Of a stretch of 64,000 nucleotides of DNA, positions 35,237 to 55,394 are shown one piece after another. Positions within the stretch are counted from its first letter, which is position 1, and each line of letters starts with the position of its first letter. Source of the stretch: Ignavibacteriota bacterium (GTDB lineage Bacteria > Bacteroidota > Ignavibacteria > UBA10030); the NCBI GenBank assembly GCA_963701295.1, contig OY969585.1, forward strand, positions 2,784,001 to 2,848,000, given 5' to 3'. The notes below the pieces were generated by a model. It saw nothing but the letters and a program-made list of their open reading frames with translations. It was not told the origin of the DNA and made no database searches. A program made the translations under genes and the position numbers.

Positions 35237-35457
35237 TCTGTGTAGAAATTTCATTTAATCTCATCTCATCGAAAAGTGCTAGCACACTGTTAGCAGTTGA
35301 ATTATGTGCGGAAATAAATACTTCCAATTCTAATTGCAGAAACTCTTTGTATTATTTGAAGGGCAATAATGTTGAAAAATGTTAATTCGAATGTGAAAGA
35401 ACTATGATTCTGGTTAGAAGCACCGCTCATAATATTTTCCCCTAGAACGATATTACT

Positions 35458-35491
35458 TGAAGGTTGCAGGTTCAAGTCCTGCCCCCGCTAC
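35458..35491 (+). tRNA. 3' fragment of an initiator-type tRNA-Met (att-site remnant)
   Basis: GAAGGTT-GCAGG-TTCAAGT-CCTGC-CCCCGCTAC gives a T-arm plus acceptor 3' strand; no intact 5' half. Confidence 0.6.
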
Positions 35492-35507
35492 TTAGTCCAA
35501 AGAAGAA

Positions 35508-35540
35508 TCCTCATCGAATAAAATCGGTGAGGAATTTTTG
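35508..35540 (+). terminator. Hairpin terminator after the tRNA fragment
   Basis: TCCTCATCGA / TCGGTGAGGA followed by ATTTTTG. Confidence 0.6.
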
Positions 35541-35650
35541 TTTTAGGGTGTAATTGTAGTAAGATGTTTTGCTTTTTCTGCCCTTTTAACACCCACGCTT
35601 ATTCAAATTTAGTGTCGCGCTTGGCGTGATTCAGTTATTTGGACAAGCCG

Positions 35651-35671
35651 AGCTTGAGCGTCTGGTTATGC
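35651..35671 (-). repeat. Truncated attC (cassette 11)
   Basis: Only R''/L'' (GCATAAC-CAGAC-GCTCAAGC) remain. Confidence 0.75.
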
Positions 35672-35679
35672 CGCTTATT

Positions 35680-36189
35680 TTATTTGTTTACTTGACCAAA
35701 TAATTGAGCTGCGGGACATCCGAGTTCTTGTTGTTTGCAATACTTACAGGAAAAAGAACTGCGAATAAACTCATTCCCTTTAAAGGAAATCAAAACAATA
35801 GCAATTATTGCAGCTAAAATTATCCATTTAAAATTGATCAATAATGTAATTATTCCGCCAATTAAAGGAAGAACTAGTAATAGCAAATCGGGTATCATAT
35901 CCCACCACGTCGATTTTCGTTCATTAAATTTCTTGGGATCACCTTTGGAGAATACCGATGCACAAATTTTCCCTTTCCCAAATCCGCATAATTTTCCGTA
36001 GTAATAGCAATTTACACATCCCTTGCGATATTGATTTATTTCCATAAAAATGAAATACAATAAATAAAATACAGCAAATATAGTTCCCAATTGAGCAAGG
36101 ATGAATAATCCAATAGCATAAATAGATATCGATAATGCATTAGCTATTGCAATCATCCAAAACGGATAGTTCTCATATTTGGATTGCAT
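35680..36189 (-). CDS. Cassette 11: 4-TM membrane protein with Cys clusters
   Basis: Hydrophobic helices; CVNCYYYGKLC and CKYCKQQELGCP. Confidence 0.7.
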   Translation of the reverse strand: MQSKYENYPFWMIAIANALSISIYAIGLFILAQLGTIFAVFYLLYFIFMEINQYRKGCVNCYYYGKLCGFGKGKICASVFSKGDPKKFNERKSTWWDMIPDLLLLVLPLIGGIITLLINFKWIILAAIIAIVLISFKGNEFIRSSFSCKYCKQQELGCPAAQLFGQVNK

Positions 36190-36225
36190 AGTTAATACTC
36201 CTCACAATTGATCTAAGCGTAAGCG

Positions 36226-36381
36226 GCCTAACGGATCAGCGCTAAGCGGCGGCGTTGATAATTTTCAAGTTGCTGGAAACGAAACAAGTTTATGATATCA
36301 ACTTTCAAATAAACACAAAACCTATGCTCGCCATGAATTTTACAGTGAGCTCATTCCGTCAGCTTGAGCGCCTGGTTAGGC
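36226..36381 (-). repeat. attC (156 bp)
   Basis: GCCTAAC...GTTAGGC with conserved L boxes. Confidence 0.92.
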
Positions 36382-36487
36382 GGCAGATGAATTGAAGAGA
36401 TTTATAACTTCAAAAAATACTTATACTAAATAATTCAATAAAAGTTTTACAATATATATTTTCTGTTTCATTGCGATATTTAGAAAA

Positions 36488-37387
36488 TCATTTTGTTAAG
36501 TAACGCACTATAACTACTCCTGAACCTCCGTTACCACCAGGCATACTTACATACGTTCCGGAAACTAGTCCGCCGCCGCCACCACCACCACCTGTATTTG
36601 GTGTGCCATTGCCTGCAATGGAATTAGTATTTGATCCTGCACCTCCGCCTCCAACGCCCCCAGCACCTGGCGTGTCAGTACCATAAACGCCACCACCACC
36701 ACCGCCTCCATAATAGACATTTGAACCTGAAATACTGAAAGCTAACCCCGGTCCACCATTTCCATTTCCACCAGATCCGGTTCCACCACTTCCAACTCCA
36801 CCCGCACCACCGCCGCCTCCTGCAAGATAATTCCAAGCAGTTCCCCCAAGACCACCAGCATATCCTTGACCAGGTATTCCATCACCGTTGCTATTACCTA
36901 GATTTTGTGGACTGCCGCCTCCACCTGAACCCCCACTGTCTGCCATTGAAAACCTGCTTGCCCCACCACCTCCACCGATTGCTACTACTACATCAAATAT
37001 TGAGTTTGACCCATTTAAAGCTGTAATAGTGTTATCAGTAGAACCACTTCCACCTACTCCAACGATAACAGGTATATTTCCACTTACATAATAATATTTT
37101 TTATATACTACTCCGCCACCACCTCCACCACCAGCCGTATGACATCCCCCACCACCACCTCCTCCTACAACAAGTAATTCCACTAGCCCACTGTCAATAC
37201 AAGAAAATGTTCCGCTGCTGGTAAAAGTATGTATTGTGTAACCTCCGGCTTGGGTTATAGTTCCACCTGTAGCCGAGTTTAACATTCCAAGTGTGATATA
37301 AGTTGGAGCGGTTGATTGATCTTTTTGGCAGCTTGCGATAAATAACAAGCATCCAACTATCATTGAAATTAAAAAGTGTTTTGTCAT
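36488..37387 (-). CDS. Cassette 10: glycine-rich lipoprotein
   Basis: Lipobox FIAS-C; YTIHTFTSSGTF...GGGGGGG...GGSGVVIVRY glycine-rich domain. Confidence 0.8.
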   Translation of the reverse strand: MTKHFLISMIVGCLLFIASCQKDQSTAPTYITLGMLNSATGGTITQAGGYTIHTFTSSGTFSCIDSGLVELLVVGGGGGGGCHTAGGGGGGGVVYKKYYYVSGNIPVIVGVGGSGSTDNTITALNGSNSIFDVVVAIGGGGGASRFSMADSGGSGGGGSPQNLGNSNGDGIPGQGYAGGLGGTAWNYLAGGGGGAGGVGSGGTGSGGNGNGGPGLAFSISGSNVYYGGGGGGGVYGTDTPGAGGVGGGGAGSNTNSIAGNGTPNTGGGGGGGGLVSGTYVSMPGGNGGSGVVIVRYLTK

Positions 37388-37429
37388 GGATATTTCTCCT
37401 ATTAGTTATAGAATGCTAATTTTAAGGTT

Positions 37430-37650
37430 GCCTAACGGACCGGCGCTAAGCTGCGGCGTTGATAACTCTCGTAATGCAACCAACGAAACAAGTTCATGCT
37501 GAAAACCAAATTAATAAACACTCAACCAACGAGGTATTGAAAAGTTAATTATAAAAACTTAAACCCACCATTAGCCATGAATTTCGCACCCAGCTCATTC
37601 CGTCAGCTTGCTTGCCCGCCGTCTTGTTGGGCGGGAGCGCCTGGTTAGGT
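37430..37650 (-). repeat. attC (221 bp, long type, 25-bp hairpin insertion)
   Basis: GCCTAAC...GTTAGGT; insertion at 37611-37635. Confidence 0.9.
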
Positions 37651-37660
37651 TGCAATTGTT

Positions 37661-38873
37661 TCATTTGAGCAAAACAAGTTTTTTTATCTCAGTAAATGAG
37701 CCGGCTTGCAATCGATAAAAATAAAATCCACTCGGCATATTTGACGCATTCCATTGCCGTGTGTAGGTGCCAGCAGATAATTCTTCAGAGGTAATGATTG
37801 CTATTTCTCTTCCAAGTAAATCATATATCTTTAGTAACACATATGATTTCGATGGAATAATAAATGAAATAGTCGTAGATGGATTAAAAGGATTGGGATA
37901 ATTCTGACCAAGCCTGAAATTCGTCGGTAAGTCAGTCGAGAGCTTTTCTACTGAGGTTATTTCTGACAACGGTCGTTTCCAGACGCCGATTTCAGTCCCG
38001 GCAAAGAGATTCGTGCCGGAAACGGTAAGAATATATATAACAGTCTTTGCCAAACCAGTGTTGATAGGAGTCCAGCTTGTGCCATTATTGGTCGAAAGAA
38101 AGACGCCACCGTTCAGAGTCCCGGCAAAGAGATTTGTTCCAGAACCAGTAAGAGCAACGACAGGATTAGACATCAATCCGTTACTCATTGCAATCCAATT
38201 TGTACCGTTATTAGTAGATAGAAAGACACCTAAATCAGTTCCAGCATAGAGATTTGTACCAGAGACGGCAAGTGTAGAGACAATAGGAATATTCGACCAC
38301 CTATCTGTTAGGCCTGTATTCACTGCAGTCCAGCTTGTCCCATTGTTGGTCGATAGGAAAACGCCATCTTCAGTCCCTGCAAAGAGATTAGTACCAGAAA
38401 CAATAATATAGGCTAACTTTAATCCAGTACCTCGCTGCAGACCAACTAGTACCGTTATTGGTGGAAAGAAAAACGCCGTTATAAGTCGCGGCAAATAGAT
38501 TCGTACCGGAGACGGCAAAAGAATAGACAAAAGGGGATGTCAAGTTTGAATCGATTGCTTTCCAGCTTGTGCCATTGTTGGTGGATAGAAAGGCGCCACC
38601 ACCCCAAGTCCCGGCAAAAAGATTCGTACCGGAGAATGTAAGAGCATAGACATAAGGATTTGTCAATCCTGAATCGACTGTAATCCAACTTGTGCCGTCG
38701 TTAGTGGAAAGAAAGACACCGCCAGATCCTCCTGCAAAGAGATTCGTACCACTTGCAGTAATACATTGAATAAAACCATTGTTGGATCCTGTCTGTATCC
38801 ATTGAGCCATGGAAGGATTGATGCCGGATATCATAAAAATACTTAACATTAAAGAACGAATAATGTTTTTCAT
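37661..38873 (-). pseudogene. Cassette 9: BNR/beta-propeller repeat protein with T9SS CTD, frameshifted
   Basis: Repeats of SGTNLFAGT..GVFLSTNNGTSW; ORFs 38388..38873 and 37661..38530 join if one base is removed at about 38431. Confidence 0.85.
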
Positions 38874-38913
38874 ATGTCTGTTTTCTTCTGTTTAGTTACT
38901 ACAACGCAATTGC

Positions 38914-39068
38914 ACCTAACTGACTGGCGCTAAGCTGCGGCGTTGATAATTCTCGTAATGCAACCAAAGAAACAAGTTCATGCTGATTCTTTCAAGTTTG
39001 TACTGACCTATACGTGCAATGTAAATTGCACCCAGCTGGCAACCGTCAGCTTGAGCAGTGGGTTAGGA
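38914..39068 (-). repeat. attC (155 bp)
   Basis: ACCTAAC...GTTAGGA. Confidence 0.9.
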
Positions 39069-39080
39069 TGCAATTGCCAT

Positions 39081-40982
39081 TTACTTAAGCAAAATCATTT
39101 TCTTTGTCTTAACGAAACTTCCGGCAGTGAGTCTGTAGATATACACTCCGCTTGACAACCCACCTGCGTTAAAAGACACCGAGTGAGCACCAGCATTCTG
39201 ACGTTCGTTGACCAATGTTCTTATTTCCCTTCCTAACATATCGTAAACCTCTAAATTTATAAAACTGTTTGTCGGCAACTGATAACCGATGACCGTTGTA
39301 GGATTGAAAGGGTTAGGATAATTTTGATTCAGAACAAAAACGAGTGGAACATGCGAGCTTGTTCGCGAGACAACGCTCGTTACTGATGTTATCCAGGTCA
39401 GAGCCGCTTTTGCAACATCATCTTCACCTTTTGCGACACCATCTGGCGTTAACCAAACCTTGTCATCCATTTGAAATTCCACGTGTGTAAGATAATGAGG
39501 AAGACTGTCTTCCAAGACATACCCATTCAACCATGCGTACTGGGCAAAACAAATACTGTCGATACTTGTTATCTGATCGGATGCATATCCTGAAGCAGGA
39601 GGTTCCCCGAAAAACCGTGCCTTGGGGTGATTACGCAATTGTGTCGCTATAAAATCGTTAGCACTCACTGAATTTGGCCCCATTAGAACCGCGATTGGTT
39701 TATCGAAGAATCGCGTTGAATCGACAAACATGGAGAAAGTTGAAAAATACATCATCGAGAAATGATCGAACGGATCGTTGCGGCTCGCCAAATAAATCGG
39801 CGGGGGCGCGACTTTGAATAGAAGCGAAAGCCCTTCATCAGCATTCTCTACGTACCCTCCTTGGTTTGAGCGAATATCGATGACTATACCGTCCACCTTG
39901 TAGATGCGTGTCAGAGAGTCGATTGCATTGAAGAAATGTAAATTTGAATTAAACCAAGTCCACGAATAGACGTATCCGATGTTTGTACCCTGAACAATTC
40001 CCCACCGAACATCCTTAGCAGATGTGATCGAATCAGTCATCGGGACGCCTGCGACAGGTAGTTGTTCCGTACAAAACAAGCTTAAGTCTTTACCAATAAG
40101 AAGACTGGTGGGAAGATGCAGTGTGTCTCTCGTTGAATATTTTATGATGTCGATTGTATCAAAGAGATGCCAGTTTCTCCCAGCAGATTGAAGCCATGAA
40201 TGTGCGAACGCCCCTGCGTTTCCTCCCCAATACGATGTGAACGAAATTGGCAGCTCCATCTTAAGCAATCGAGGATAGAGTTGTTTCCACGGCACACCGT
40301 CATACCCCAGGACAATATCCCCGGGAACTAGCCCCAACGGATGCGATGGAATCGATTTGTAAACCAGAACGGTACTATCCTCAAGAGGAGTGAGTCCTGC
40401 GCCAAAACTATCGTCGTTTCCCCAACCCCCAGCAAATAACATAGGTATTCCTGGTGTGCCTCTTGTGAGATTCGTAATGCCCATATCTCCTATGTGAGTA
40501 TGCGGCTCCATCAATGCAATGGACATCTGACTGAGAATGGCTGCAAATCGGCCACGACTGACCCCTTTTTCGATCTCGGGCCGGTATTTGTTCTTGAGGA
40601 CGTTCCAATCGAAATCAAGATTTTGGAAACAGGCAAACTTCTGGTCGATCATTGTCCATACCGAATCGAAAGCTTGCAATTCTTCCGTTGCTGGAGCAGT
40701 CCCCCAAATACTATTCACTCGATCATGCCAATCAGACTTAAGGATATCGAGGGCTTGTGATTCAAGAATTGTGCTGGCACAAATCACAATGAGACAGCAC
40801 AGTAGAAAATTCTTCCAAATTAAGCGATTCTTGAATCCATCAAGAAATTCTTCCAAACTGATATTATGGGATAAATGATTGATATTTGTCAACTGTAGTA
40901 GAGCGGACGTTTCAGCTGTGCAGTTCTTCCGGACGGATCGTCTAAGTGTTAAATGTCTAGGGCAACAATGCTTAATTACCAA
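39081..40982 (-). CDS. Cassette 8: S41-family peptidase with T9SS CTD (start uncertain)
   Basis: IVIDIRSNQGG, VLMGPNSVSANDF, FFGEP; QNYPNPFNP CTD; signal-like segment at about 40830-40760. Confidence 0.8.
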   Translation of the reverse strand: MVIKHCCPRHLTLRRSVRKNCTAETSALLQLTNINHLSHNISLEEFLDGFKNRLIWKNFLLCCLIVICASTILESQALDILKSDWHDRVNSIWGTAPATEELQAFDSVWTMIDQKFACFQNLDFDWNVLKNKYRPEIEKGVSRGRFAAILSQMSIALMEPHTHIGDMGITNLTRGTPGIPMLFAGGWGNDDSFGAGLTPLEDSTVLVYKSIPSHPLGLVPGDIVLGYDGVPWKQLYPRLLKMELPISFTSYWGGNAGAFAHSWLQSAGRNWHLFDTIDIIKYSTRDTLHLPTSLLIGKDLSLFCTEQLPVAGVPMTDSITSAKDVRWGIVQGTNIGYVYSWTWFNSNLHFFNAIDSLTRIYKVDGIVIDIRSNQGGYVENADEGLSLLFKVAPPPIYLASRNDPFDHFSMMYFSTFSMFVDSTRFFDKPIAVLMGPNSVSANDFIATQLRNHPKARFFGEPPASGYASDQITSIDSICFAQYAWLNGYVLEDSLPHYLTHVEFQMDDKVWLTPDGVAKGEDDVAKAALTWITSVTSVVSRTSSHVPLVFVLNQNYPNPFNPTTVIGYQLPTNSFINLEVYDMLGREIRTLVNERQNAGAHSVSFNAGGLSSGVYIYRLTAGSFVKTKKMILLK

Positions 40983-41075
40983 ATAAACTCCCAGGCGTCA
41001 AAGAAACAAGAATTTCTAGAACCAGAAGAATTGTAGATATATTATTAAGAAACTCATTTTATATATTTTCCTGCT

Positions 41076-41232
41076 GCCTAACCAACGTCGCAGAAGCTAC
41101 CGTACTGATAATTTTCAAAATATTGATAACGAAACAAGTTCATTGTACCTACTTTCAAATTAATATAAAATCTACGCTCGCCGTGAATTTTGCAGTGAGC
41201 TCATTCCGTCAGCTTGGAGCTGCTGGTTATAC
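41076..41232 (-). repeat. attC (157 bp, degenerate)
   Basis: GCCTAAC...GTTATAC; L boxes diverged. Confidence 0.8.
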
Positions 41233-41241
41233 CGCTTGCAT

Positions 41242-42192
41242 TTATTTCTTGTCTTTCAAATATTTGCTATAAAATTCGGCGATCTTATTAAAAAACTCCG
41301 GATAGGTGATGAATTCCGGCCCGTTCATGCCGCCGTGTTCGGCATGAGGCACTATCCATAATTCTTTTTGTCCCTTCAATTCACCCGCTATTTTCTTCGA
41401 CATCCAGACTGGCGTGCGATTATCCTTTTCGCCGACAATTAAGAACACCGGAATCGAAACTTTCTTTGCTGCGTTTACTGGCAACAGTTCAATGGGATAA
41501 TTTTCCGGCGGTAAAAAATTTCTGTCAGGAGAAACTTGTTTCAGTATCGGTAAAAGATCAGCAAATGATGTCAGCAACGCTCGGCCGACATAGGCTGCTA
41601 TGTCGTTCCTCTTTGCGGCGATAGCGAAAGACAAATAAGCACCGGTGGAAAAGCCCATGACACCAATTCGCATTGTATCAACTTCCGGCTGTTGCTTTAA
41701 GAAATCGACAGCCGCATTATAATCGGTAATGAATTCCGCATAGCACAATCTATCCTCTTCAGTTGGCCAATCCGAGCTTTCTCCGAAACCACGCCAATCA
41801 AAGAGCAGAACATTGTAACCCCGCGTAAACAAATGATAACCATAAAAAATTAGCTGCGTCATATTTCCAGCATCACCATCGCAAATAATGATGGTCGGCC
41901 TCCTCGAATCATCCAACGTTGTATATAGCCTCGCTTTGGGTTTGAGTTCTTGAGGTACCGGCACAATCCGTCCGATGATCGAGTTAGCTATACCTGAAGT
42001 ATCCTGTGCCGGGAAAAACCAGCCCTTCAATTTAAGACTGTCGGCAGTTTGAATTACAACTTGTCTGTAAATGATTCCGTAATCTGAAGGGATTGCGCGG
42101 TACTGTCTTTCTGGTTTGAGTGCATACAACAACGAAGAGGTGAGAAGAAGCAAGGAAACCAGCGATAACAGGGAAGTTCTAAACTTAACCAT
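41242..42192 (-). CDS. Cassette 7: exported alpha/beta hydrolase
   Basis: FDWRGFGES, GFSTG nucleophile elbow, GEKD, AEH. Confidence 0.85.
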   Translation of the reverse strand: MVKFRTSLLSLVSLLLLTSSLLYALKPERQYRAIPSDYGIIYRQVVIQTADSLKLKGWFFPAQDTSGIANSIIGRIVPVPQELKPKARLYTTLDDSRRPTIIICDGDAGNMTQLIFYGYHLFTRGYNVLLFDWRGFGESSDWPTEEDRLCYAEFITDYNAAVDFLKQQPEVDTMRIGVMGFSTGAYLSFAIAAKRNDIAAYVGRALLTSFADLLPILKQVSPDRNFLPPENYPIELLPVNAAKKVSIPVFLIVGEKDNRTPVWMSKKIAGELKGQKELWIVPHAEHGGMNGPEFITYPEFFNKIAEFYSKYLKDKK

Positions 42193-42288
42193 TTTGTCAT
42201 CTCCTTTTTAACATGGATTCTCTATCTCAAAATTTTGAATCGAACATACAAACAGTAATGTTATCTAACTTTCATAAAAGTGCAAGAG

Positions 42289-42470
42289 GCATAATGGATC
42301 GGCGCTAAGCTGCAGCGCTGATAACTTTCATAATGTACTAAACGAACCAAGTTCATTCACTTCACTTTCAATTCTGCACTTGACCTCTACGCGCAATGCA
42401 AAATGCACTCGCGCTTTTACCGTCAGCTTGCTTGCCCGCCGTCTTGTTGGGCGGGAGCGCCTGGTTAGGC
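42289..42470 (-). repeat. attC (182 bp; 25-bp insertion; R' core GTT mutated to ATT)
   Basis: Plus strand GCATAAT...GTTAGGC; insertion at 42431-42455. Confidence 0.85.
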
Positions 42471-42477
42471 GGCTTTG

Positions 42478-43152
42478 CTAAAATGATGTCGTATCTTCTT
42501 TAACAGAAATAATTTTCCCGTTTTTATAAGACTTAATAGTCGTGATAGATCGCTTGTTCTCAAAGTCGTTGTAGGTATCTACTTCTCTAAGTAGAATTAA
42601 TTTGCCATTTTTGAAACAATGAGTATAGACAGCACCACCAGTACTCCCTCCTGCATCATAAGATGTAATTGTATGTTTAACAGAATCAGGGTCTGGATCT
42701 CTTAACTCGCTAAAATCATCATTAAATACATACTTGCCTGTTTTTGGATTGTACAGCCAAACATAATTTTGTCCTCCAGCACTTCCGTCGTTATACTCTA
42801 TAAGAATATCATTATAACCATCAAAATTCATGTCCTTTGTCTCAACAGCTCTCGGATTAAAAATAAAATCATCATTTTTAGGCAAATGGAGCCTTTGTAA
42901 TATTTTATTACTGCCTTCTTGTCGCACCTCTATTCGGATTACCTTTGGACCAGGATCAACATTCTGTTCCCAATCACTTACGAATACCGAAAATTTATAT
43001 TGAGGTAATTGCTTCGCCACAGTTATCGTAAAGTCATATTGGTTATCAGAGACCTTAACAAACGGTACTTGCGCAAGATATTGGGCGACTACAATTTCAG
43101 TGAAAGAAAATAGAAACAAATGCAAAGCAACCACTTTATATAATATTTTCAT
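42478..43152 (-). CDS. Cassette 6: exported protein, XAC2610-related
   Basis: Signal peptide from ATG 43152; DMNFDGYND motif and YVWLYNPKTGKY. Confidence 0.65.
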   Translation of the reverse strand: MKILYKVVALHLFLFSFTEIVVAQYLAQVPFVKVSDNQYDFTITVAKQLPQYKFSVFVSDWEQNVDPGPKVIRIEVRQEGSNKILQRLHLPKNDDFIFNPRAVETKDMNFDGYNDILIEYNDGSAGGQNYVWLYNPKTGKYVFNDDFSELRDPDPDSVKHTITSYDAGGSTGGAVYTHCFKNGKLILLREVDTYNDFENKRSITTIKSYKNGKIISVKEDTTSF

Positions 43153-43187
43153 CTCGTCATATCCTTTGATTAGTACTGAGCAATGCC

Positions 43188-43339
43188 AGCTAACGGTCCT
43201 AAGCTGCGGCGTTGAAAAGCTGCAAGATGCACCCAGCAAAATGAGTTCACGCTGATAATTTTTAATTTTGCACCCGACCTCTGCACGCCATGCGTAACGT
43301 ACCCGGCTGGCAACCGTCAGCTTGAGCGCCTGGTTAGGC
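43188..43339 (-). repeat. attC (152 bp)
   Basis: AGCTAAC...GTTAGGC; shortened L'-R' spacer. Confidence 0.88.
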
Positions 43340-43349
43340 AGCGTAAGAT

Positions 43350-43694
43350 TTAACGTAACCAGACAAAGCTACCATTTATCTCTTTAGCAAGTGTAACTGC
43401 GCCGTTGCCATAGTCATGACAAAAAATGTATTGATGAGGTAAGCGCAGTGCGACATCTTTAAATTTATGGTTTTTGTCCATAAGCTCGTCAAGAACTTGT
43501 TTAGAGCGTGATATTTTAGCTTTTGCCATTTCCGGAGTTGTATTCTCAATGTTCCATTCTGAATAACTATAAACGACTAAACAATTATCCTTCTCTTTCG
43601 AGAATACAACGCCATGATAATTAAAGGCATTACCCTCAATAAATTGATCTATGGCAATTTCAATACGCTGTGGCGTTGCGTCGGTAATATCCAT
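43350..43694 (-). CDS. Cassette 5: hypothetical protein
   Basis: 114-aa ORF filling the space between two attC sites; RBS AAGGAAG. Confidence 0.75.
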   Translation of the reverse strand: MDITDATPQRIEIAIDQFIEGNAFNYHGVVFSKEKDNCLVVYSYSEWNIENTTPEMAKAKISRSKQVLDELMDKNHKFKDVALRLPHQYIFCHDYGNGAVTLAKEINGSFVWLR

Positions 43695-43982
43695 TATTCT
43701 TCCTTACGCTGCCTAACGGATTGCGGCTAAGCTGCCGCATGACCAACTTTAATTAACCACAAAACGAAACGAGTTCATGCTGATAACAAAATTAACATGT
43801 ACTCAACCAATGAAGTACTGAAAAGTTAATAATAAAAACGTCAAACCACCATCAGCCATGTAAATTGCTCCAACGCTCATCCGGTCAGCTTGAGCCGCTG
43901 GATATTACCAAAAAGGAATCTCCCGATTATGTACATTGATAATTCTCTAGGTCACCAACATCCACAATCTAAGGAGATTCCC

Positions 43983-44984
43983 ATGTATTACTCAGGTATC
44001 GATTTGCATTCTGATAATTGTTTTATCACCACTGTTGATGACACTGGTGCTGTCATCAAGCGACAACGTGTCGAGAATAACAATGAACGTGTTCTTGATT
44101 ACTTCCACTCTCTGCCCGGTCCTCATCACGCAGTCGTTGAGTCTACCACAGGATGGTACTGGCTCAACGATCTTCTCAGCGATCACGGCATCGAGCTTGT
44201 CCTTGCTCACGCCAAATATCTCAAAGCCATCAGTTATGCTAAAGTTAAAACAGATAAAGTCGATTCGCAAACTCTTGCTCTTCTCTTACGACAGGGACTC
44301 ATTCCACGGGCTCACAAAATCAGCCGAGAACTACGCGGCCTGCGCGATACCATGCGTATTCGTCTACGGCTCGTTCAGCAACGAACTGCCAGTCTTCTGC
44401 GTCTCTACAGTATTCAGACCAAATTTAACGGCTCTGTTCCGGATCCGTATCGTTTTCAACTTGCTGTCTTGCAACATACCAGAGACACTTTTACTGCTCA
44501 GATCCTCTCGCTGGAAAAATCTCTCCATCCTGTGCTGATTCCCAACGACGATATTCAACGGCTCTTGCACATTCCAGGTATCGGCAAGCTCACCGCATTC
44601 ACGGTGTATCTTGAAATCGACGGCATTGAACGATTCGACTCCGATAAAAAGTTTGTCTCTTACTGCCGACTCGTCCCTGCTGCCGATAACTCCAATCGCT
44701 CTGTGCACCATCGCTCCAGCAAAGACGGCAATAAGTATCTCAAAATCGCCTTCTCCGATGCCGCTGTTCATGCTATTCAGTACTATCCGGAATACAAACG
44801 CTTATTCCAGAAATTAGCTCGTCGCTCCAATGAGGCGACTGCGCGAACCGTCGTTGCCAAAGAACTTGCGAAGATTGTTTACTATGTCTTAAAAAACAAA
44901 ACAATATATAAAGGTCTCAAAGGTCAGCCGATCAGCCGGCATAAATCTCAGCAGTGGCCGCGCCTCTCAAGCCCGCTTTCCTAA
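43983..44984 (+). CDS. IS110-family DEDD recombinase/transposase
   Basis: GIDLH, VEST, KTDKVDS (DEDD), IPGIG, DNS serine loop, GNKYLK; ATG 43983 with AAGGAG RBS. Confidence 0.95.
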   Translation: MYYSGIDLHSDNCFITTVDDTGAVIKRQRVENNNERVLDYFHSLPGPHHAVVESTTGWYWLNDLLSDHGIELVLAHAKYLKAISYAKVKTDKVDSQTLALLLRQGLIPRAHKISRELRGLRDTMRIRLRLVQQRTASLLRLYSIQTKFNGSVPDPYRFQLAVLQHTRDTFTAQILSLEKSLHPVLIPNDDIQRLLHIPGIGKLTAFTVYLEIDGIERFDSDKKFVSYCRLVPAADNSNRSVHHRSSKDGNKYLKIAFSDAAVHAIQYYPEYKRLFQKLARRSNEATARTVVAKELAKIVYYVLKNKTIYKGLKGQPISRHKSQQWPRLSSPLS

Positions 44985-45240
44985 CTGATCCCGACTGCGT
45001 CGGGATCGTTCGCTGGATTGGGAAGAGAGTGCGCTGTGCCGTGGTAATATCTGGAACATCTCGCTCGACGAGATACGCTTTCACCATCGTTTCTTCAATG
45101 AGTGAATGTAAATCCGTAAACTGGTTTGGACGGCATTGCTCTGGTAATCGCCTGTCTATTCGATAGAGAACGCGGCATCGGCACGGATTCGGTCGTCCTT
45201 AATGTTAAAGAACTCTGCATTCCGATTGCGCGGAACGCAT
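44961..45240 (+). ncRNA. Predicted bridge RNA / seekRNA
   Basis: Guides CCTAAC (44980-85) and CGCTGG (45011-16) match the target; TGGTAATATC (45042-51) and TAAACTGG (45117-24) match the donor junction; each pair lies in a stem-closed loop. RNA ends approximate. Confidence 0.85.
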
Positions 45241-45294
45241 CGGGAGTATATTATTTACTTGACTCTTTCCTTTTTAAACTGGTTAGGCAGCGCT

Positions 45295-45699
45295 TTATTT
45301 CTTATCGTTCTTTGAATCTAATTTTTTCATCTCGAAACCTCTAACGATGACATACGCAATGAGAGCAACCAGAAAAAATATAAGGAGCATCCACGCAATA
45401 CTCTGCAATGAATCGATAATAGATTTGTACACCTCTATAATCCATCGGTCAGAAGTAAGCTGAAGAATTCTGCCTTCTTTGTCCGATGTAATGTACTTTT
45501 CGAGATCCCATAATCTCACTCCGCCGGAAATGCCAACAACAAATATTGCAAAGAGGATGTACCGTCGCCAAGTGGGAGCCAGATCCTCGCTGACAAGTCG
45601 GCTAAGAATTTTTGTAATGGGTCGTGCGAAGAGGAATGCAACCAAAGTTGACATCGCCAATGCAATAACGAAGGTTACAATTAACAATGTGACAAACAT
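45295..45699 (-). CDS. Cassette 4: 3-TM membrane protein
   Basis: Hydrophobic ORF with GGAGG RBS between attC sites. Confidence 0.8.
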   Translation of the reverse strand: MFVTLLIVTFVIALAMSTLVAFLFARPITKILSRLVSEDLAPTWRRYILFAIFVVGISGGVRLWDLEKYITSDKEGRILQLTSDRWIIEVYKSIIDSLQSIAWMLLIFFLVALIAYVIVRGFEMKKLDSKNDKK

Positions 45700-45734
45700 G
45701 TGATACCTCCTTTTGACAAATAACTTAAAGCGCT

Positions 45735-45889
45735 GCCTAACGGACGCGGCTAAGCTGCGACGACGAAAACTATCAATCTTGTACCCAACGAAACGAGTTC
45801 AAGCAGGATCTTTCCAATTCCACAAGAACACTATTTGCCATGTTTAATGTACCGTCGCGCAATTCGTCAGCTTGAGCCGCTGGTTGCGC
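45735..45889 (-). repeat. attC (155 bp)
   Basis: GCCTAAC...GTTGCGC (R'' appears to have lost one base). Confidence 0.88.
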
Positions 45890-45895
45890 GCAAAG

Positions 45896-46375
45896 TTACC
45901 CGCATCCACAGCCACCCTGTGCTTTAACCATTTCGGTTCGAGTTTCGTTCTTAATAGTTATGATACTCTCCATCCACTCGAATTCACAATTATCGTTTGT
46001 TGGAGAACATACAGTGAGAAATATAAGCTTTACCTTGACGAAATATTTCCCGTATGAGTATAGCTTAATAATAGAATCGCCGACCTGTAATAATTTCTTT
46101 TGCGGCCGTACTTCTTCAATCAACTTGAGACTAATGTCATGACCATCGAGGTTCATCCAACCGATGGTGTCCTTAGCCGATCCGTCGCTGTGAAAAATGT
46201 CGCCAGACTTATGCGTGGCATCTAGATAGAAATTGCAGCCGCATTCGTCTCTATGCTCAGGAATAGATATGGGTGCAACAATGGATTTTTCCTGCGACAA
46301 TGAAAATTGGCTAGATATAGTGCATGCTAAACAGCATACGAATAAAAAGCAGAACCTATTTAGAATTATAATCAT
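45896..46375 (-). CDS. Cassette 3: exported hypothetical protein (CGC motifs at both ends)
   Basis: Signal-like N-terminus; ECGCNF and GGCGCG. Confidence 0.7.
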   Translation of the reverse strand: MIIILNRFCFLFVCCLACTISSQFSLSQEKSIVAPISIPEHRDECGCNFYLDATHKSGDIFHSDGSAKDTIGWMNLDGHDISLKLIEEVRPQKKLLQVGDSIIKLYSYGKYFVKVKLIFLTVCSPTNDNCEFEWMESIITIKNETRTEMVKAQGGCGCG

Positions 46376-46390
46376 TGATTTTACTTTGCG

Positions 46391-46578
46391 CGCTAACGGA
46401 CCGCAACTAAGCTGCGGCGCTGATAATTTTCAATATACACAAAACGAAGTGAGTTCATGCTAAAAGTTTATTATTAAACATCTAAACCTCTACGCGCCAT
46501 GCTTAACGTACCCATTTACCCGCCATGCTTTATCTTTGGGCGAGCGCTCATTCCGTCAGCTTGAGCGCCTGGTTAGGT
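46391..46578 (-). repeat. attC (188 bp, about 30-bp hairpin insertion)
   Basis: CGCTAAC...GTTAGGT; insertion at about 46515-46545. Confidence 0.9.
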
Positions 46579-46591
46579 GAACTTGCAACTA

Positions 46592-48796
46592 CTATTTGAT
46601 TAACAACATTTTCTTTACCACAAAAAAACCTCCAGCTTCGATGCGATAGAAATATACTCCGGAGGCAGAGGAAGATCCATTCCACTCTCTTGAATATGAT
46701 CCTGAATCTAAATCTCTATCGACAAGAGTTGCTATCTGATTGCCTAACAAATCAAAGATCCTGACGTGAACTTTACATCGAAAAGGAATAGAGAAATTGA
46801 TTCTTGTCAACGGATTAAAAGGGTTTGGGTAGTTCTGCTCCAGATGGAATCCATTAATCTTATTATTACTAGATTGTTGTACGTTCGTTGTCGAATGAAT
46901 GCTTCTAAATACGCCCTGCCTATAAGTGCCTGCAAATAGAAGTCCTGAATGATCTGGGGCCAAGGCAAAAACAGAAGTACTCGTCAAACCGTTGTTCAGA
47001 AGATTCCATGTTACACCAGCATCTGTTGACTGGAAAACTCCATCGCCAGAGTTACTATAGCTACCAACATAAATGTTCGATCTGGAGTTTAATGCGATAC
47101 AATTAATTGAAACATTTGGAAGACCAATATTTTCCCATGACAGACCATTGTTGTTAGAACGAAATAATCCATTGTCATAAGTCCCTGCATAAAGGTTTCC
47201 CACTGAATCAACTGCAAGACTGTAAATGTACGTATCTGGAATTCCTATACTAGTTGACGTCCAATTGTTGCCATTGTCAGTAGTGCGAAAAACATGTCCA
47301 CTTGGGAGTCCATTTACATTGCCAGTTCCAGCATAAATGAAGCCACTATTCGGCACTGCAATCATGCAGTTTACACTCCAATCTTCGAGACCAACATTTG
47401 CTTGTGCCCAAGTATCTCCACGGTCTGTGGATCGATAGACACCGAGATATGATCCAGCGAAGATACTTTGGTTCGGTGCTATTGCAAGAGCATTGAGTCT
47501 GATGGAATCCAAAGGCGTTTGCATCCAAGTAGCGCCAAGGTTCGTGCTTCGATATACACCATTGCTAGTACCAGTATAGACCCAATTACTCGAATCGATT
47601 GAGATCGATTGAATCCATGAACTTTTCAGACCCTCGTTAGATTCTTGCCAACTCGTGCCCCCATCGGTAGAACGGAATAGTCCATTGCCAATGTATGGCC
47701 CCGAATAGCCATAACCAGTTCCAGCAAAGATATATCCATTCCGACTAACACAGATCGAATGAATCCATGTATTGAGTAATCCGAGATTTCCTTCCGACCA
47801 GTGAGCACCAAAGTCTGTGGAAAAGCAAATGCCGCCACCTCCGGTACCTGTAAACAAACGGCCAGAGTGATCCGAATAAATCGAGTTTATGTACATGCTT
47901 GATAATCCATTGCTGGAACCCAGCCAACTGATGCCATGATTGGTCGAGCAAAAGACTCCATGACCTAAAGAGGCTGAGACCTGACCGGTGCCAGCATACA
48001 GGCGATTGGCATTGTCAGCCACTAGAGAGTGAATGTACTCGGCGGGTAAGCCAGAGTCAGCTGTGAACCAGTCATCTCCAGAATTTGTGGAGCGATACAC
48101 CTGACCAGCATATGTCCCAGCGTATACATCATTGTTTAAATCGACAGTGATGGCAGAAATCCATTCTGGTTGTTTAACGACAACCCAGGAATTACCACCA
48201 TCAGTTGACCGATGTAATCCACCAGTTCCTCCACCAGTCATACCGTGATACTCTTCCTCGGTTCCTGCGAAAATGAAGCCCTGTTGATTCTCCGCAAAAG
48301 CCCGAATGGAAAAGTTTGTCAATCCAATATTCAATTGATACCACGAACTACCCTCATTTGTTGATCGATAGATACCACCGCCAGATGTCCCAACAAAAAC
48401 AGCTCCGTTTCGAGTGATAAGAAGAACATTGGTGTATGTTGAAGTCATCCAGTTATCGATACGTTCCCAGCTTTGTGCATGATTTGTCGACTTGAAAACA
48501 CCCTCTACAGTTCCAACAAAAAGAACGGTATCAGATCCTACAGCAATAGTTGTAATTGATAATGAAGTCAATCCAGCATTTGAAGAAGACCAACTTTTTC
48601 CTTCATCGGTTGATTTGAAGATGCCACTTCCATCAGTGCCAGCGTAGAGTGTGCCATTAGAATCGGACACAATCGATGACACGTACGCCCCAAAAGGTCC
48701 ATTTGATTGCTGCCAGAAGTTTGCCTGAGCAATAGCAAATGTTGGAATAAGAAACAAAAAGCAAATGATTAAATACTTCATATGATACTTCCACAT
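46592..48796 (-). CDS. Cassette 2: large BNR/beta-propeller repeat protein with T9SS CTD
   Basis: About 14 AGT..G(V/L)(F/Y)RSTDxGxSW repeats; QNYPNPFNP CTD. Confidence 0.88.
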   Translation of the reverse strand: MWKYHMKYLIICFLFLIPTFAIAQANFWQQSNGPFGAYVSSIVSDSNGTLYAGTDGSGIFKSTDEGKSWSSSNAGLTSLSITTIAVGSDTVLFVGTVEGVFKSTNHAQSWERIDNWMTSTYTNVLLITRNGAVFVGTSGGGIYRSTNEGSSWYQLNIGLTNFSIRAFAENQQGFIFAGTEEEYHGMTGGGTGGLHRSTDGGNSWVVVKQPEWISAITVDLNNDVYAGTYAGQVYRSTNSGDDWFTADSGLPAEYIHSLVADNANRLYAGTGQVSASLGHGVFCSTNHGISWLGSSNGLSSMYINSIYSDHSGRLFTGTGGGGICFSTDFGAHWSEGNLGLLNTWIHSICVSRNGYIFAGTGYGYSGPYIGNGLFRSTDGGTSWQESNEGLKSSWIQSISIDSSNWVYTGTSNGVYRSTNLGATWMQTPLDSIRLNALAIAPNQSIFAGSYLGVYRSTDRGDTWAQANVGLEDWSVNCMIAVPNSGFIYAGTGNVNGLPSGHVFRTTDNGNNWTSTSIGIPDTYIYSLAVDSVGNLYAGTYDNGLFRSNNNGLSWENIGLPNVSINCIALNSRSNIYVGSYSNSGDGVFQSTDAGVTWNLLNNGLTSTSVFALAPDHSGLLFAGTYRQGVFRSIHSTTNVQQSSNNKINGFHLEQNYPNPFNPLTRINFSIPFRCKVHVRIFDLLGNQIATLVDRDLDSGSYSREWNGSSSASGVYFYRIEAGGFFVVKKMLLIK

Positions 48797-48811
48797 TATT
48801 TATGCAAGTTC

Positions 48812-49008
48812 ACCTAACGGACCGGCGCTAAGCTGCGGCAATGATAACCCGCAAGCTGCTGAAAACGAACTAAGTTCATTCTGAAAACCAAATTAAATAT
48901 TCCTCAACCAATGAGGTACTGAAAAGTTAATTATAAAAACCTAAACCCACCACAAGCAATGCTTAACGTACCCCAGCTCATTCCGTCAGCTTGAGCGCCT
49001 GGTTAGAA
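48812..49008 (-). repeat. attC (197 bp, long type)
   Basis: ACCTAAC...GTTAGAA. Confidence 0.92.
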
Positions 49009-49063
49009 CGCACGCGGCACAATTTATAAATGATGAACAAAATGGATATTGTTTAATTGTAAG

Positions 49064-49660
49064 TCACATTTCTTTCGTAACGTTATCAACCCATGTCGCA
49101 AAATTCTCATATCCGTCATCTGCTACCCAATCATAAACGGAATACCACTTTTTTAATTGATAAGTTTGGCTCCACTCCTCACGTGGGAGTTGATTTTCCA
49201 GCGTGTATCCGTTTTTATCCACGCTGGTTTGCCAAGCCGTGTTATTCCATTCGAGAAATTCCAGACTTGTTCCATTGCCATTATAACGGATTGCTAAATA
49301 ATCGAATGGATTCGGGCCAAGTGCTTTGATCGTTTGGCTTTTATCTTTAATACTATTTATATGAACTCCGAACATACCGTTTCCTTTCGATATGCTCTTG
49401 AATATTTCATATCGAACCCAGCGACGGGCATATGTATCACTTCCAATTAGTACAACTGTAGCGGATGTGTTCACGAGCGCATCATCAATAAGGCGTTTGA
49501 TTGCTTCAGGGCCGGTTTTTCGTGCTTTTTCCCAAATTGAAGCGTCAAAAAATCCCGCATCATCTCTGGTCTCTTTAGTCAGGTCATGTTTTCGAACAAC
49601 GTTCGCGCGAAACGTTTCAACATCCTCATAGTCAAAGCTGAAAAATACTCTTTTTGCCAT
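49064..49660 (-). CDS. Cassette 1b: TIR-domain protein (ThsB/DUF1863-like)
   Basis: KRVFFSFDYED...TSATVVLIGSDTYARRWVRYEI with the catalytic-type Glu. Confidence 0.88.
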   Translation of the reverse strand: MAKRVFFSFDYEDVETFRANVVRKHDLTKETRDDAGFFDASIWEKARKTGPEAIKRLIDDALVNTSATVVLIGSDTYARRWVRYEIFKSISKGNGMFGVHINSIKDKSQTIKALGPNPFDYLAIRYNGNGTSLEFLEWNNTAWQTSVDKNGYTLENQLPREEWSQTYQLKKWYSVYDWVADDGYENFATWVDNVTKEM

Positions 49661-49662
49661 AT

Positions 49663-50058
49663 TTAAAGTGTCCACATGATTAAGATGATTGTCCCAATCA
49701 ACACTGCATAAAAAGGGAGAATCGTTTTTGAAAATACTGTCTTGAGATATGTATGTTTATCCATGGCATTTTGGGAAAACTTCATGGAAAAATCTATACT
49801 TGATTCCTCCTTTATCCTTACTTCATCATACAACTCTCTAAACAACCTTTCCTGCCATAAGTAATAAGAATCAAGAAGCCAAAAGATGAAGATCGGAATA
49901 TATGCGATGAGGATGTACTGGTTCTTAGTTCCAGAAGAAAGCGCTGTTAGAGCCGCAACAATTGTGATACACCATCCTTTAGCAAAAAATGAATTGTTTC
50001 CAAGTCTGTTAATAACGCCCTGGATAAATTCTAAATGTTTGAGTTTCTTTTCGTTCAT
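49663..50058 (-). CDS. Cassette 1a: small transmembrane protein coupled to the TIR gene
   Basis: KHLEFIQGVINRLGNNSFFAKGW...FWLLDSYYLWQERLFRELYD; three hydrophobic segments; 2 bp from the TIR start. Confidence 0.75.
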   Translation of the reverse strand: MNEKKLKHLEFIQGVINRLGNNSFFAKGWCITIVAALTALSSGTKNQYILIAYIPIFIFWLLDSYYLWQERLFRELYDEVRIKEESSIDFSMKFSQNAMDKHTYLKTVFSKTILPFYAVLIGTIILIMWTL

Positions 50059-50097
50059 GGAATCACCATAGTCTAAAGATCAAAGAATTTTCGTGCG

Positions 50098-50171
50098 TTC
50101 TAACAATGATTAGACTGCATACCACAGCCTAATACGCTTTTTTGTGTGTTAGACTACATATTGCGGCCTAA
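50098..50171 (-). other. attI-like site
   Basis: G/TTAGAA core at 50104 is not preceded by an attC; two 23-bp direct repeats (50110-32, 50149-71; 18/23 identical). Confidence 0.75.
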
Positions 50172-50254
50172 CATGATGAACTTGGTAACTATGAAACGGA
50201 TTCTGGCAGCTCCCAACAATTCCCCACTTTCTTCGGATACTTATCCGCGCAGGT

Positions 50255-50283
50255 AATCTATCAATAGCATCTTTAAAACGCAA
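50255..50283 (-). promoter_or_regulatory. Candidate Pc cassette promoter
   Basis: TTGCGT-17 bp-TAGATT with TGn extension, pointing into attI. Confidence 0.5.
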
Positions 50284-50595
50284 GGGAATAAATTTCTATC
50301 CTCGAAGAAGCCCTAAGAGACCCTAATATTTTCCAGAAACAAAATATTAGAAATCGAATCGCCATATGGAATGAAAATAATTTCCAGAAAAAATTATAGG
50401 AAAACCACTTCCCCATCCTCTCTACATTGATTCCTCTGGTATATCGAAGTAGAAGATACTCCAGAAACTCCTGTAAGGCTTAAAAGGTTGAGGCTCAAAA
50501 GAATGCTATTCTGAATCCTCTTTTTACTTAGCATCGTAAAGAAAAGCGCTCAATCTTGCGCTTTTCTCCACCGTCACAGATAGGCAACGGCTTTA

Positions 50596-50619
50596 TGTTG
50601 GAGGGATTGTCGGAGGGAT
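50596..50619. repeat. Tandem 12-bp direct repeat (arm-type site-like)
   Basis: TGTTGGAGGGAT TGTCGGAGGGAT. Confidence 0.55.
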
Positions 50620-50880: not shown

Positions 50881-51729
50881 ATGAAACAGTTTGCCAAATT
50901 ATCAATTCTAATCGCTTTCTCAGCTTTGACAATGAATGTCTTTGGGCAAAGCAATAATTACCCTTTTGAAATAAAAATCTCTGGAAAAGGAATTCATTCA
51001 ATAATCTTCATCCCCGGTTTTGCTTGTTCGGGAAAAGTTTGGGATGAAACAAAAATACTCTACGAAACTAAGTACACTTGCTACATTTTGACTATGGCTG
51101 GTTTTGCAGAAGTTCCTCCTCAGTCTCAACCAACATTTCAGAATTGGGAGAAAGCCATTGCTGCATACATCCAACAAAACAAAATAGACAAGCCCATCAT
51201 TGTAGGGCATAGTTTAGGCGGTGGTTTAGCTATGGCATTAGCTGCTGATTATCCTGATCTCATTTCTAAAATAGTTATTGTCGATGCACTGCCTTGTTTG
51301 GCTGCATTAATGGATACTTCGTTTCAAGTAAAAGAAAACAATGATTGTAGTGCTATGGTATCACAAATCACATCAGCAACGAACGAACAGTTTTATCAAA
51401 TGCAAAAACAAAACATACCACATTTATTGGCAGATACATCAAAACATGACCTTGTGGTTAGCTGGTCGGTTCAATCAGACAGAACAACATTTGCAGAAAT
51501 GTATTGTGATTTTTCTAATACTGACTTACGAGAGAAGATTTCTGGTATTACATGCCCTGCATTAATTTTATTGGAATCATCTTTCGAGAACTTCAAACCG
51601 GCAATAAATGAACAATTCAAAAATCTGAAGACTTCCAATTTGCAATATGCCACGAAAGGTCTCCACTTTATTATGTATGACGACAAAGATTGGTATAACA
51701 CACAACTCAACAACTTTATTGGACGATAA
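50881..51729 (+). CDS. Exported alpha/beta hydrolase
   Basis: FIPGF, GHSLGG, LHFIMYD; ATG 50881 with AGGAGA RBS; upstream TGTAAC...GTATCT ECF-like promoter at 50830-56. Confidence 0.88.
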   Translation: MKQFAKLSILIAFSALTMNVFGQSNNYPFEIKISGKGIHSIIFIPGFACSGKVWDETKILYETKYTCYILTMAGFAEVPPQSQPTFQNWEKAIAAYIQQNKIDKPIIVGHSLGGGLAMALAADYPDLISKIVIVDALPCLAALMDTSFQVKENNDCSAMVSQITSATNEQFYQMQKQNIPHLLADTSKHDLVVSWSVQSDRTTFAEMYCDFSNTDLREKISGITCPALILLESSFENFKPAINEQFKNLKTSNLQYATKGLHFIMYDDKDWYNTQLNNFIGR

Positions 51730-51736
51730 CAAACAA

Positions 51737-55164: not shown

Positions 55165-55203
55165 GATACACCTCCAGAATAAGGAGATGAAAGAGAAGGA
55201 TTC

Positions 55204-55394
55204 AGTGCCTAATATAGTGCCAAGTTGATTTTTAGCGATTAAAAAAGGCGCAAAATAAAGGGGTTTTGTGTAGCTTCGAGGTGTTTAGGAAACCGCTGCT
55301 CTATCCATCTGAGCTACGGGGTCGTTGCTTTTATTCTGAATTCGGCATTTTATTTTTCAACTTTTTTCCAAAAGTGCCAAGTTTGGTGCCAACT
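55204..55394. mobile_element. attP-like site with paired arm repeats
   Basis: GTGCC(A/T)A repeats at 55205/55217 and 55374/55386 (12-bp period) flanking a tRNA half. Confidence 0.7.
55283..55323 (-). tRNA. 5' half of tRNA-Arg(CCT)
   Basis: GACCCCGTAGCTCAGATGGATAGAGCAGCGGTTTCCTAAAC; similarity ends just after the anticodon loop. Confidence 0.85.

What the first reader, a model, noticed from the sequence alone, without database searches (positions are those of the whole stretch)
35651..50283. Eleven-cassette integron array with attI and Pc but no intI, in an Ignavibacteria-like genome
Seen: 11 homogeneous attC repeats (ten at 152-221 bp, one truncated), an attI-like site with 23-bp direct repeats and a sigma70-like promoter. 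No integrase ORF is present where intI normally sits. The tyrosine recombinase 4 kb away is phage-type. Established: homogeneous attC sites mark sedentary chromosomal integrons, and intI-less arrays (CALINs) exist. Inference: this is a satellite platform serviced in trans, or one that recently lost intI, in a lineage where integrons are poorly characterised.
Basis: partly seen in the sequence, partly recalled or inferred. Interest (0 to 1): 0.75.

Follow-up and report, generated by a model that had tools for sequence, protein, structure and literature searches.

The report
Satellite integron array sharing one integrase
This is a real 11-cassette gene-capture (integron) array that kept its docking site but has lost its enzyme gene; the chromosome has seven such docking sites and only one intact integrase gene, which likely restocks the distant arrays, so one enzyme may run several gene-capture sites.

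Summary
Confirmed and extended. The window holds 11 cassettes with 10 complete attC sites and 1 truncated one, showing the canonical extrahelical G and T. They lie behind an attI that is 68/74 identical to the attI beside the genome's only intact intI, 730 kb away. Homology to that complete integron stops at the intI ribosome-binding site, so intI was deleted here.

The closed genome has 137 paired attC sites and 7 attI cores. The same deletion breakpoint occurs at a second locus of this genome and in two related records. One congener shares both flanks of the module but no cassette, so the array turned over after intI was lost and the loss is not recent. Exact cassette-bounded duplicates link other intI-less arrays, which points to one IntI acting in trans (inferred, untested).

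Against: no window cassette has a near-identical copy elsewhere, the congener's copy looks worn and is unchanged where two runs cover it, and the Pc promoter is a weak match.

It is a CALIN by definition, but a variant that keeps attI. I found no paper on this layout; this scan reported it earlier in other genomes.

The parts
50100..50173 (-). attI: core site with crossover between 50104 and 50103, L box and two 23-bp direct repeats
   Evidence: 68/74 identical to the attI beside the intact intI; cassette junction falls at the same base in all copies
50174..50290 (-). Remnant of the attI-intI spacer with the Pc-like promoter (-35 at 50283-50278, -10 at 50260-50255; inferred) and the former intI ribosome-binding site on the + strand
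   Evidence: not flagged by the consensus scan
50291..50478 (.). intI deletion breakpoint and the non-coding repeat that follows it
   Evidence: same breakpoint at G000:C1:3172042, G009:C7 and L160; no IntI hit
49064..50058 (-). Cassette 1 genes: 131-aa membrane protein and ThsB-like TIR protein, matching PADLOC candidate defence pair PDC-M50A/B
   Evidence: cassette ends complementary 10/10
48812..49008 (-). attC 1 (197 bp)
46592..48796 (-). Cassette 2 gene: BNR-repeat propeller protein with type IX secretion tail
46391..46578 (-). attC 2 (188 bp)
45896..46375 (-). Cassette 3 gene: 159-aa protein, no family
45735..45889 (-). attC 3 (155 bp; inverse core one base short)
45295..45699 (-). Cassette 4 gene: 134-aa membrane protein, no family
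43902..45282 (+). IS110-family element inserted in attC 4 next to its inverse core
43711..45288 (-). attC 4, interrupted by the IS
43350..43694 (-). Cassette 5 gene: 114 aa, no family
43188..43339 (-). attC 5 (152 bp)
42478..43153 (-). Cassette 6 gene: XAC2610-related protein
42289..42470 (-). attC 6 with a 25-bp hairpin inserted in its stem
41242..42192 (-). Cassette 7 gene: alpha/beta hydrolase
41076..41232 (-). attC 7 (degenerate L' side)
39081..40982 (-). Cassette 8 gene: S41 peptidase with type IX secretion tail
38914..39068 (-). attC 8 (155 bp)
37661..38873 (-). Cassette 9 gene: BNR-repeat secreted protein, split over two frames
37430..37650 (-). attC 9 (221 bp) with the same 25-bp hairpin insert
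36488..37387 (-). Cassette 10 gene: glycine-rich protein (PF21722)
36226..36381 (-). attC 10 (156 bp)
35680..36189 (-). Cassette 11 gene: 169-aa membrane protein, no family
35590..35671 (-). attC 11, truncated and fused to the island-end sequence
35249..35589 (+). Left end of the module: repeat shared with tRNA-Phe island ends (35277-35295) and a 33-bp 3' fragment of tRNA-Met (35459-35491)
50881..52793 (+). Hydrolase, ECF sigma factor and membrane protein that travel with the platform
   Evidence: 95% identical in G009:C7
54109..55164 (-). Island-type tyrosine integrase, not an IntI
55283..55321 (-). 5' half of tRNA-Arg(CCT); the intact tRNA lies 27 kb left of the window, bounding an 82-kb island

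Best explanation
The locus is an integron platform whose intI gene was deleted back to its ribosome-binding site while the attI site and a likely cassette promoter were kept, and it is likely restocked in trans by the genome's single intact IntI, encoded 730 kb away. Shown: real attC cassettes; an attI nearly identical to the one beside intI; one intact intI against 7 attI cores; a deletion older than the split from a congener; total cassette turnover since then. Inferred: IntI excises cassettes as circles from any array and inserts them at whichever attI it meets; each satellite adds a further promoter-proximal first position; sequence decay stopped at the promoter's -35 box because expression of cassette 1 is selected; the platform travelled as part of a tRNA-targeting island. 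How this copy reached the tRNA-Arg island is not resolved.
For: One TIGR02249 hit over cut-off among 21 matches in a 99.3% complete single contig, with intact catalytic motifs and IntI patch. 7 attI cores in G000 and 4 in G009, each with one intI. Only 14 of 137 paired attC lie in the array beside intI. Same breakpoint in the window, G000:3172042, G009:C7 and L160. Window and G009:C7 share both flanks (35249-35481; 50100-53057) but no cassette; best protein matches are 36-66% repeat or tail hits. Cassette 1 starts at the attI crossover and its two ends are complementary 10/10; own end beats the neighbour's in 73 of 111 cassettes, ties in 14, loses in 24. A 1968-bp cassette (0 mismatches in 1978) and a 465-bp cassette each sit in two intI-less arrays with different neighbours, identity ending within 6 bases of the crossovers; one host array has the window's platform type. 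The window attI is closer to the intI-linked attI (68/74) than to its worn sibling in G009 (51/74). The two cassettes nearest attI have clean attC sites; damage lies further out.
Against: No window cassette has a copy at 85% or more in another array of G000. Cassette 1 has no DNA match in 15 congeners and cassettes 3-7 gave only IS and attC matches, with 18 candidates scored per genome. The G009 sibling has lost a direct repeat and its first attC is degenerate; runs X1 and X2 match it letter for letter over the pieces laid, so no turnover was seen there. The duplicated 1968-bp cassette carries an IS in its own attC, which should hinder excision, so the IS must have entered twice or the site still works. 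Two 431-bp duplicates start 12 bases inside the attC rather than at the crossover. Pc is a weak consensus, and its spacer is almost as conserved as its boxes (0.87 vs 0.95-0.98). The assembly could not be checked against reads.
Confidence: 0.72

Rival explanations
1. Homologous recombination, not IntI, swaps the arrays. The near-identical attI-Pc blocks, attC repeats and IS copies let RecA or incoming DNA graft the intI-less upstream module onto arrays built elsewhere.
For: Abundant homology: 9 identical IS copies, homogeneous attC sites, repeated island-end sequence. The same truncated-attC junction ends several arrays with different last genes. Two duplicates start inside the attC. One satellite is a mosaic: this attI type beside a relic of another IntI clade.
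Against: Two duplicates end within 6 bases of the IntI crossovers on both sides, with too little identity beyond for ordinary recombination. An intact IntI with a cognate attI is present.
Confidence: 0.13
2. A dead relic: a once-complete integron that lost intI and is now frozen and eroding, its attI preserved only because little time has passed.
For: Four of ten complete attC sites carry an insertion or a damaged core, and one gene is split. The G009 sibling is worn and unchanged where two runs cover it. intI decay is common (PMC2426708, passages).
Against: The deletion predates the species split, yet the arrays share nothing, unlike frozen Xanthomonas citri arrays (10.1101/2025.06.18.660453, section 10). 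The adjacent non-coding repeat is 109/159 alike to G009 while attI stays 68/74 alike to the working site.
Confidence: 0.1
3. A fragment of one large integron split by rearrangement, or cassettes gathered at a secondary (attG) site.
For: Both are proposed origins of CALINs (PMC4889954 and 10.1101/2022.09.11.507474, passages); IS elements are present.
Against: A split leaves one attI, not seven. A secondary site would not carry the attI, the spacer and the intI ribosome-binding site; intI remnants survive at three other satellites.
Confidence: 0.03
4. The neighbouring tyrosine recombinase at 54109-55164 is the array's own integrase.
For: It lies 4 kb from attI and is intact.
Against: 86.8 bits against a cut-off of 265. 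It faces a half tRNA-Arg, its relatives sit at tRNA genes, and the matching island of G009 has this integrase but no attC 3' half.
Confidence: 0.02

Closest known systems
[quoted passage not shown] 2016, PMC4889954; Neron et al. 2022, PMC9024848; passages read)
   Same: At least two attC sites, no intI nearby, an intI elsewhere in the replicon (half of CALINs); loss of intI is one of the four proposed origins, and exchange with a distant integrase is suggested.
   Different: Those papers did not search for attI outside classes 1-3 and picture CALINs mainly as degraded donors. This array keeps a cognate attI and spacer, so it can act as a recipient, and it is one of six intI-less attI cores in the genome. 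It has over 10 attC sites, as only 6.6% of their CALINs did.
Sedentary chromosomal integron (Vibrio and Xanthomonas type)
   Same: Chromosomal, more than 10 homogeneous attC sites, mostly genes of unknown function, a candidate anti-phage pair, cassettes co-oriented with replication (113 of 137 sites).
   Different: Not one array at one ancestral locus: about ten clusters, many at tRNA-anchored islands, and the same module sits in different islands in two species.
Xanthomonas integrons with deleted intI (10.1101/2025.06.18.660453; passages and section 10 read)
   Same: intI deleted, array kept.
   Different: There the genome has no working IntI and the pv. citri arrays are identical among strains; here a working intI remains and arrays behind one shared deletion differ completely.
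SALIN and attG insertion (Loot et al., 10.1101/2022.09.11.507474; passages read)
   Same: Cassettes placed far from intI by an integrase acting at a distance.
   Different: attG sites differ from attI in sequence and structure; this site is a true attI copy.
IS1111-attC group (PMC11187229, passages read)
   Same: IS110-family transposase, non-coding region downstream, 11 of 11 copies at the same attC position.
   Different: Passenger only; phylogenetic membership not tested.

Membership tests
Complete integron | intI next to the array | tested here: not met
   No IntI hit within 2.5 kb behind Pc; only intact intI is 730 kb away
Complete integron | attI at the head of the array | tested here: met
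   68/74 identical to the intI-adjacent site; first cassette joins at the core
Complete integron | Working Pc promoter | tested here: inconclusive
   Conserved in 14 of 14 alleles but 7/12 consensus, not flagged; no expression data
CALIN | Two or more attC sites | tested here: met
   10 complete and 1 half site
CALIN | attC bottom-strand hairpin with extrahelical bases | tested here: met
   Arm duplex -17.8 vs -9.6 kcal/mol; G 109/111, T 106/111 and compensatory pairs
CALIN | No intI within the clustering distance (4-10 kb) | tested here: met
   nearest tyrosine recombinase is far below the IntI cut-off
CALIN | Detection by IntegronFinder's own attC model | not testable with these tools
   Program and model not available; own half-site HMMs used
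Sedentary chromosomal integron | More than 10 homogeneous attC sites on the chromosome | tested here: met
Sedentary chromosomal integron | Fixed ancestral locus with its own intI | tested here: not met
   Module in the tRNA-Arg island in G000 and the tRNA-Phe island in G009; no intI
Satellite platform served in trans | IntI recombines this attI in vivo | not testable with these tools
   Needs an assay; indirect support
IS1111-attC group | DEDD transposase, downstream non-coding region, fixed attC target | tested here: met
IS1111-attC group | Transposase clusters with named members | not tested
   No tree built
PDC-M50 candidate defence system | Adjacent M50A and M50B genes | tested here: met
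   E 2e-50 and 1.6e-57; anti-phage function not tested

The most novel reading that the evidence does not exclude
The intI-less attI-plus-promoter block is a selected, non-autonomous integron unit. It is carried between tRNA-anchored islands and species, lets one integrase feed six or more separately expressed capture sites, and is the normal integron architecture of this genus. Many large CALINs would then be active recipients rather than ruins.
Probability: 0.4. Interest if true: 0.7.

Novelty: new variant of a known kind. Interest (0 to 1): 0.5.

Why it matters
CALINs are about as common as complete integrons, and whether they are dead remnants or working parts is open, partly because attI is not searched for outside clinical classes (PMC9024848, PMC4889954, passages). 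Here a closed genome gives one integrase, its cognate attI, and six further attI cores with graded intI decay. A deletion shared across species dates the loss and shows that turnover came afterwards. The question can therefore be tested directly with a standard attI x attC assay. If true, one regulated enzyme supplies several promoter-proximal positions, which changes how array size, expression and defence-cassette deployment are counted in environmental bacteria.

Tried and rejected
An IntI peptide read one base out of frame was used. IntI hits and identities from those calls were dropped and redone. One search found nothing because of a wrong motif spacing and was redone. The pair count on alignment A2 failed on string length; covariation was computed instead. 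Whole-site folding was uninformative for half the sites.

Rfam gave only a chance hit. No RNA holder was listed. Run X2's contig first looked like an independent allele with another first cassette but is identical to G009; L161 is too. X3-X5 and X8 gave only fragments. L160 ends at the attI core, so its first cassette is unknown.

The 618-bp match between the intI-linked array and a satellite is a transposase fragment, not a cassette. G008 has the hydrolase-ECF module with no attI match in the 35 kb read. The G002 orthologue of the left-flank regulator is not followed by the array's left end. No LexA over cut-off was found, so SOS control of this intI is not supported. The R''/R' parser misread four window sites that carry insertions or a deletion; they were left in the 111.
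Full report
Observation. The window is G000:C1:2784001-2848000 of a single-contig 3.64-Mb genome, 99.3% complete. Between 35590 and 50103 lie 11 cassettes on the - strand, each closed by a repeat. Ten repeats are complete (152-221 bp) and the last has only its 5' half. They behave as attC sites. The two arms pair on the + strand at -17.8 kcal/mol on average against -9.6 for shuffled partners (124 sites genome-wide). The unpaired bases are G in 109 and T in 106 of 111 sites, and four stem positions show compensatory change. Whole-site folding is significant for only some sites (z -3.4 to +1.0). The core at a cassette's start matches its own inverse core better than the neighbour's in 73 of 111 cassettes, ties in 14 and loses in 24; cassettes 1, 2 and 5 of the window match 10/10. 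Cargo includes a TIR plus membrane-protein pair matching PADLOC PDC-M50 in first position, three secreted proteins with type IX tails, two hydrolases among them or beside them, and four proteins with no family. Records carrying this attI are titled Ignavibacteriae or Bacteroidota.

The genome around it. Half-site models find 137 paired attC sites and 52 single halves at 15 bits or more, none on the reversed genome. Only one of 21 tyrosine-recombinase matches passes the integron-integrase cut-off: C1:3566706-3567665, 319 aa, 453 bits, catalytic motifs and IntI patch intact. Its own array holds 14 of the 137 paired sites. Its attI core recurs seven times in the genome; five intI-less copies with both repeats, the window's included, head arrays of 8-27 paired sites, and a sixth has lost one repeat. 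The window attI is 68/74 identical to the intI-linked one. Of the 137 sites, 113 are co-oriented with replication from dnaA at 976782; most exceptions appear to belong to the array at 225-261 kb.

intI was deleted, not absent from the start. Alignment shows homology running from attI through the spacer to the intI ribosome-binding site and stopping there. Other satellites keep more: about the first 15-17 codons at 2464 kb (by eye), and a 25-65 residue relic of a different IntI clade at 1796 and 3446 kb. A -35/-10 pair pointing at the cassettes overlaps that ribosome-binding site and is nearly invariant in 14 of 14 alleles, 10 of them without intI. It scores only 7/12, was not flagged, and its spacer is nearly as conserved, so Pc remains an inference.

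The loss is old and the array changed afterwards. The same breakpoint occurs at G000:3172042, in G009:C7 and in metagenome contig L160. G009 is about 90% identical in core DNA. It shares the window's left end and the right flank through the hydrolase-ECF genes (95%), yet no cassette is shared; the best protein matches are repeat or secretion-tail hits. The 3172-kb array shares only the IS, the ends and family-level repeats. In G009 the module lies inside a 35-kb island bounded by tRNA-Phe and its 46-bp 3' copy, with an intact integrase. In G000 it lies inside an 82-kb island at tRNA-Arg(CCT), whose integrase is the gene at 54109-55164; the matching G009 island showed no attC 3' half. The attI or spacer was found in 11 of 15 congeners and in none of 25 more distant genomes; G009 has four attI cores and one intI.

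Signs of action in trans. A 1968-bp cassette is identical (0 of 1978 differences) in the intI-less arrays at 236 and 2475 kb. A 465-bp cassette without an ORF is identical at 2478 and 3166 kb. In both, the neighbours differ and identity ends within 6 bases of the crossovers. Caveats: the first carries an IS in its own attC; two 431-bp duplicates begin 12 bases inside the attC; no window cassette has a copy at 85% or more elsewhere or in the congeners searched. The G009 sibling has lost a direct repeat, has a degenerate first attC, and is unchanged over the pieces laid from two runs, so such satellites can die. The window copy has an intact attI and clean proximal attC sites, with wear further out, the pattern expected (inference) if new cassettes enter at attI.

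Mechanism. Most likely one IntI, made at a single locus, excises cassettes from any array and inserts them at any intact attI, so that each satellite offers another first position behind its own promoter (0.72). Rivals are swapping by homologous recombination (0.13), a frozen relic (0.10), a split array or secondary-site cluster (0.03) and service by the island integrase (0.02).

Comparison with what is known. It meets the CALIN definition and fails that of a complete integron. Cury et al. list intI loss as an origin and suggest exchange with a distant integrase, but searched attI only for classes 1-3 (PMC4889954, passages). Neron et al. report integrons in Ignavibacteriae and note that attI is poorly described (PMC9024848, passages). 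Trans mobilisation of CALIN cassettes is stated as possible in PMC9668308 and 10.1101/2025.06.18.660453 (passages; section 10). PMC2426708 documents frequent intI pseudogenes (passages). 10.1101/2022.09.11.507474 covers attG sites (passages). 10.64898/2026.03.17.712381 uses an engineered attI with integrase in trans (passages). PMC11187229 covers attC-targeting IS1111 elements (passages). Six searches listed no paper on natural genomes with several attI platforms and one intI. The library lacks most subscription journals, and I read no supplements, which could hold such cases. This scan's earlier notes report the same layout in other genomes; they are unchecked and were not used as support.

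Verdict. A real feature and a new variant of a known kind. What this case adds is a closed genome and a dated deletion with later turnover. Interest 0.5.

Noticed in passing
window 43902-45282; G000 genome-wide: IS110-family element with 9 identical and 2 divergent copies, all at the same base beside the attC inverse core and mostly in one attC spacer variant. Its downstream non-coding region holds short matches to the target and to the joined ends (seen by eye), as expected of a guide RNA.
   Followed up: partly
window 37612-37636, 42432-42456, 46518-46545: Small GC-rich hairpin inserts inside attC sites; 20 of 24 such hairpins in the genome lie in or near attC. Those in the stem may lock neighbouring cassettes together. 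Source unknown.
   Followed up: partly
window 49064-50058: First-position two-gene cassette, TIR protein plus membrane protein, matching PADLOC candidate system PDC-M50; no DNA match in 15 congeners.
   Followed up: partly
G000:C1:1796730-1796977 and 3446561-3446775 (L011, L014): An attI of the resident type sits next to a relic of a different IntI clade whose own attI differs; a mosaic platform, possibly an attI replaced to suit the resident integrase.
   Followed up: partly
window 52986-53060; also G000:C1 45547, 2370042, 2375385, 2434145, 2884661, 3175249: A repeated 60-bp non-coding motif with an inverted repeat marks the point where homology between islands switches; perhaps a recombination site.
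   Followed up: partly
window 35459-35590; G000:C1 1811400, 2400850, 2419850, 2440850, 3133100: tRNA-Met 3' fragment plus hairpin ends several arrays, in four cases fused to a truncated attC at a similar junction.
   Followed up: partly
window 54109-55321; G009:C2, G010:C2, G004:C5: Islands bounded by a 5' half tRNA at one end and the intact tRNA at the other, with a long integrase at one end and a shorter or broken paralogue at the other.
   Followed up: partly
window 31057-35236: Hybrid two-component regulator split into two frames near an A run at about 34108; the G002 orthologue lies in one 1398-aa frame. Sequencing error or real break not determined.
   Followed up: no
G000:C1:225000-261500: The one large array oriented against replication.
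   Followed up: no
G000:C1:581744-582118 (L017): C-terminal 45 codons of an intI next to a tRNA-Glu 3' fragment.
   Followed up: no
G008:C8:90656 (L097), G006:C8:66090 (L099): attI of the G000 type in genomes whose only detected IntI belongs to another clade; G008 is 86% complete.
   Followed up: no
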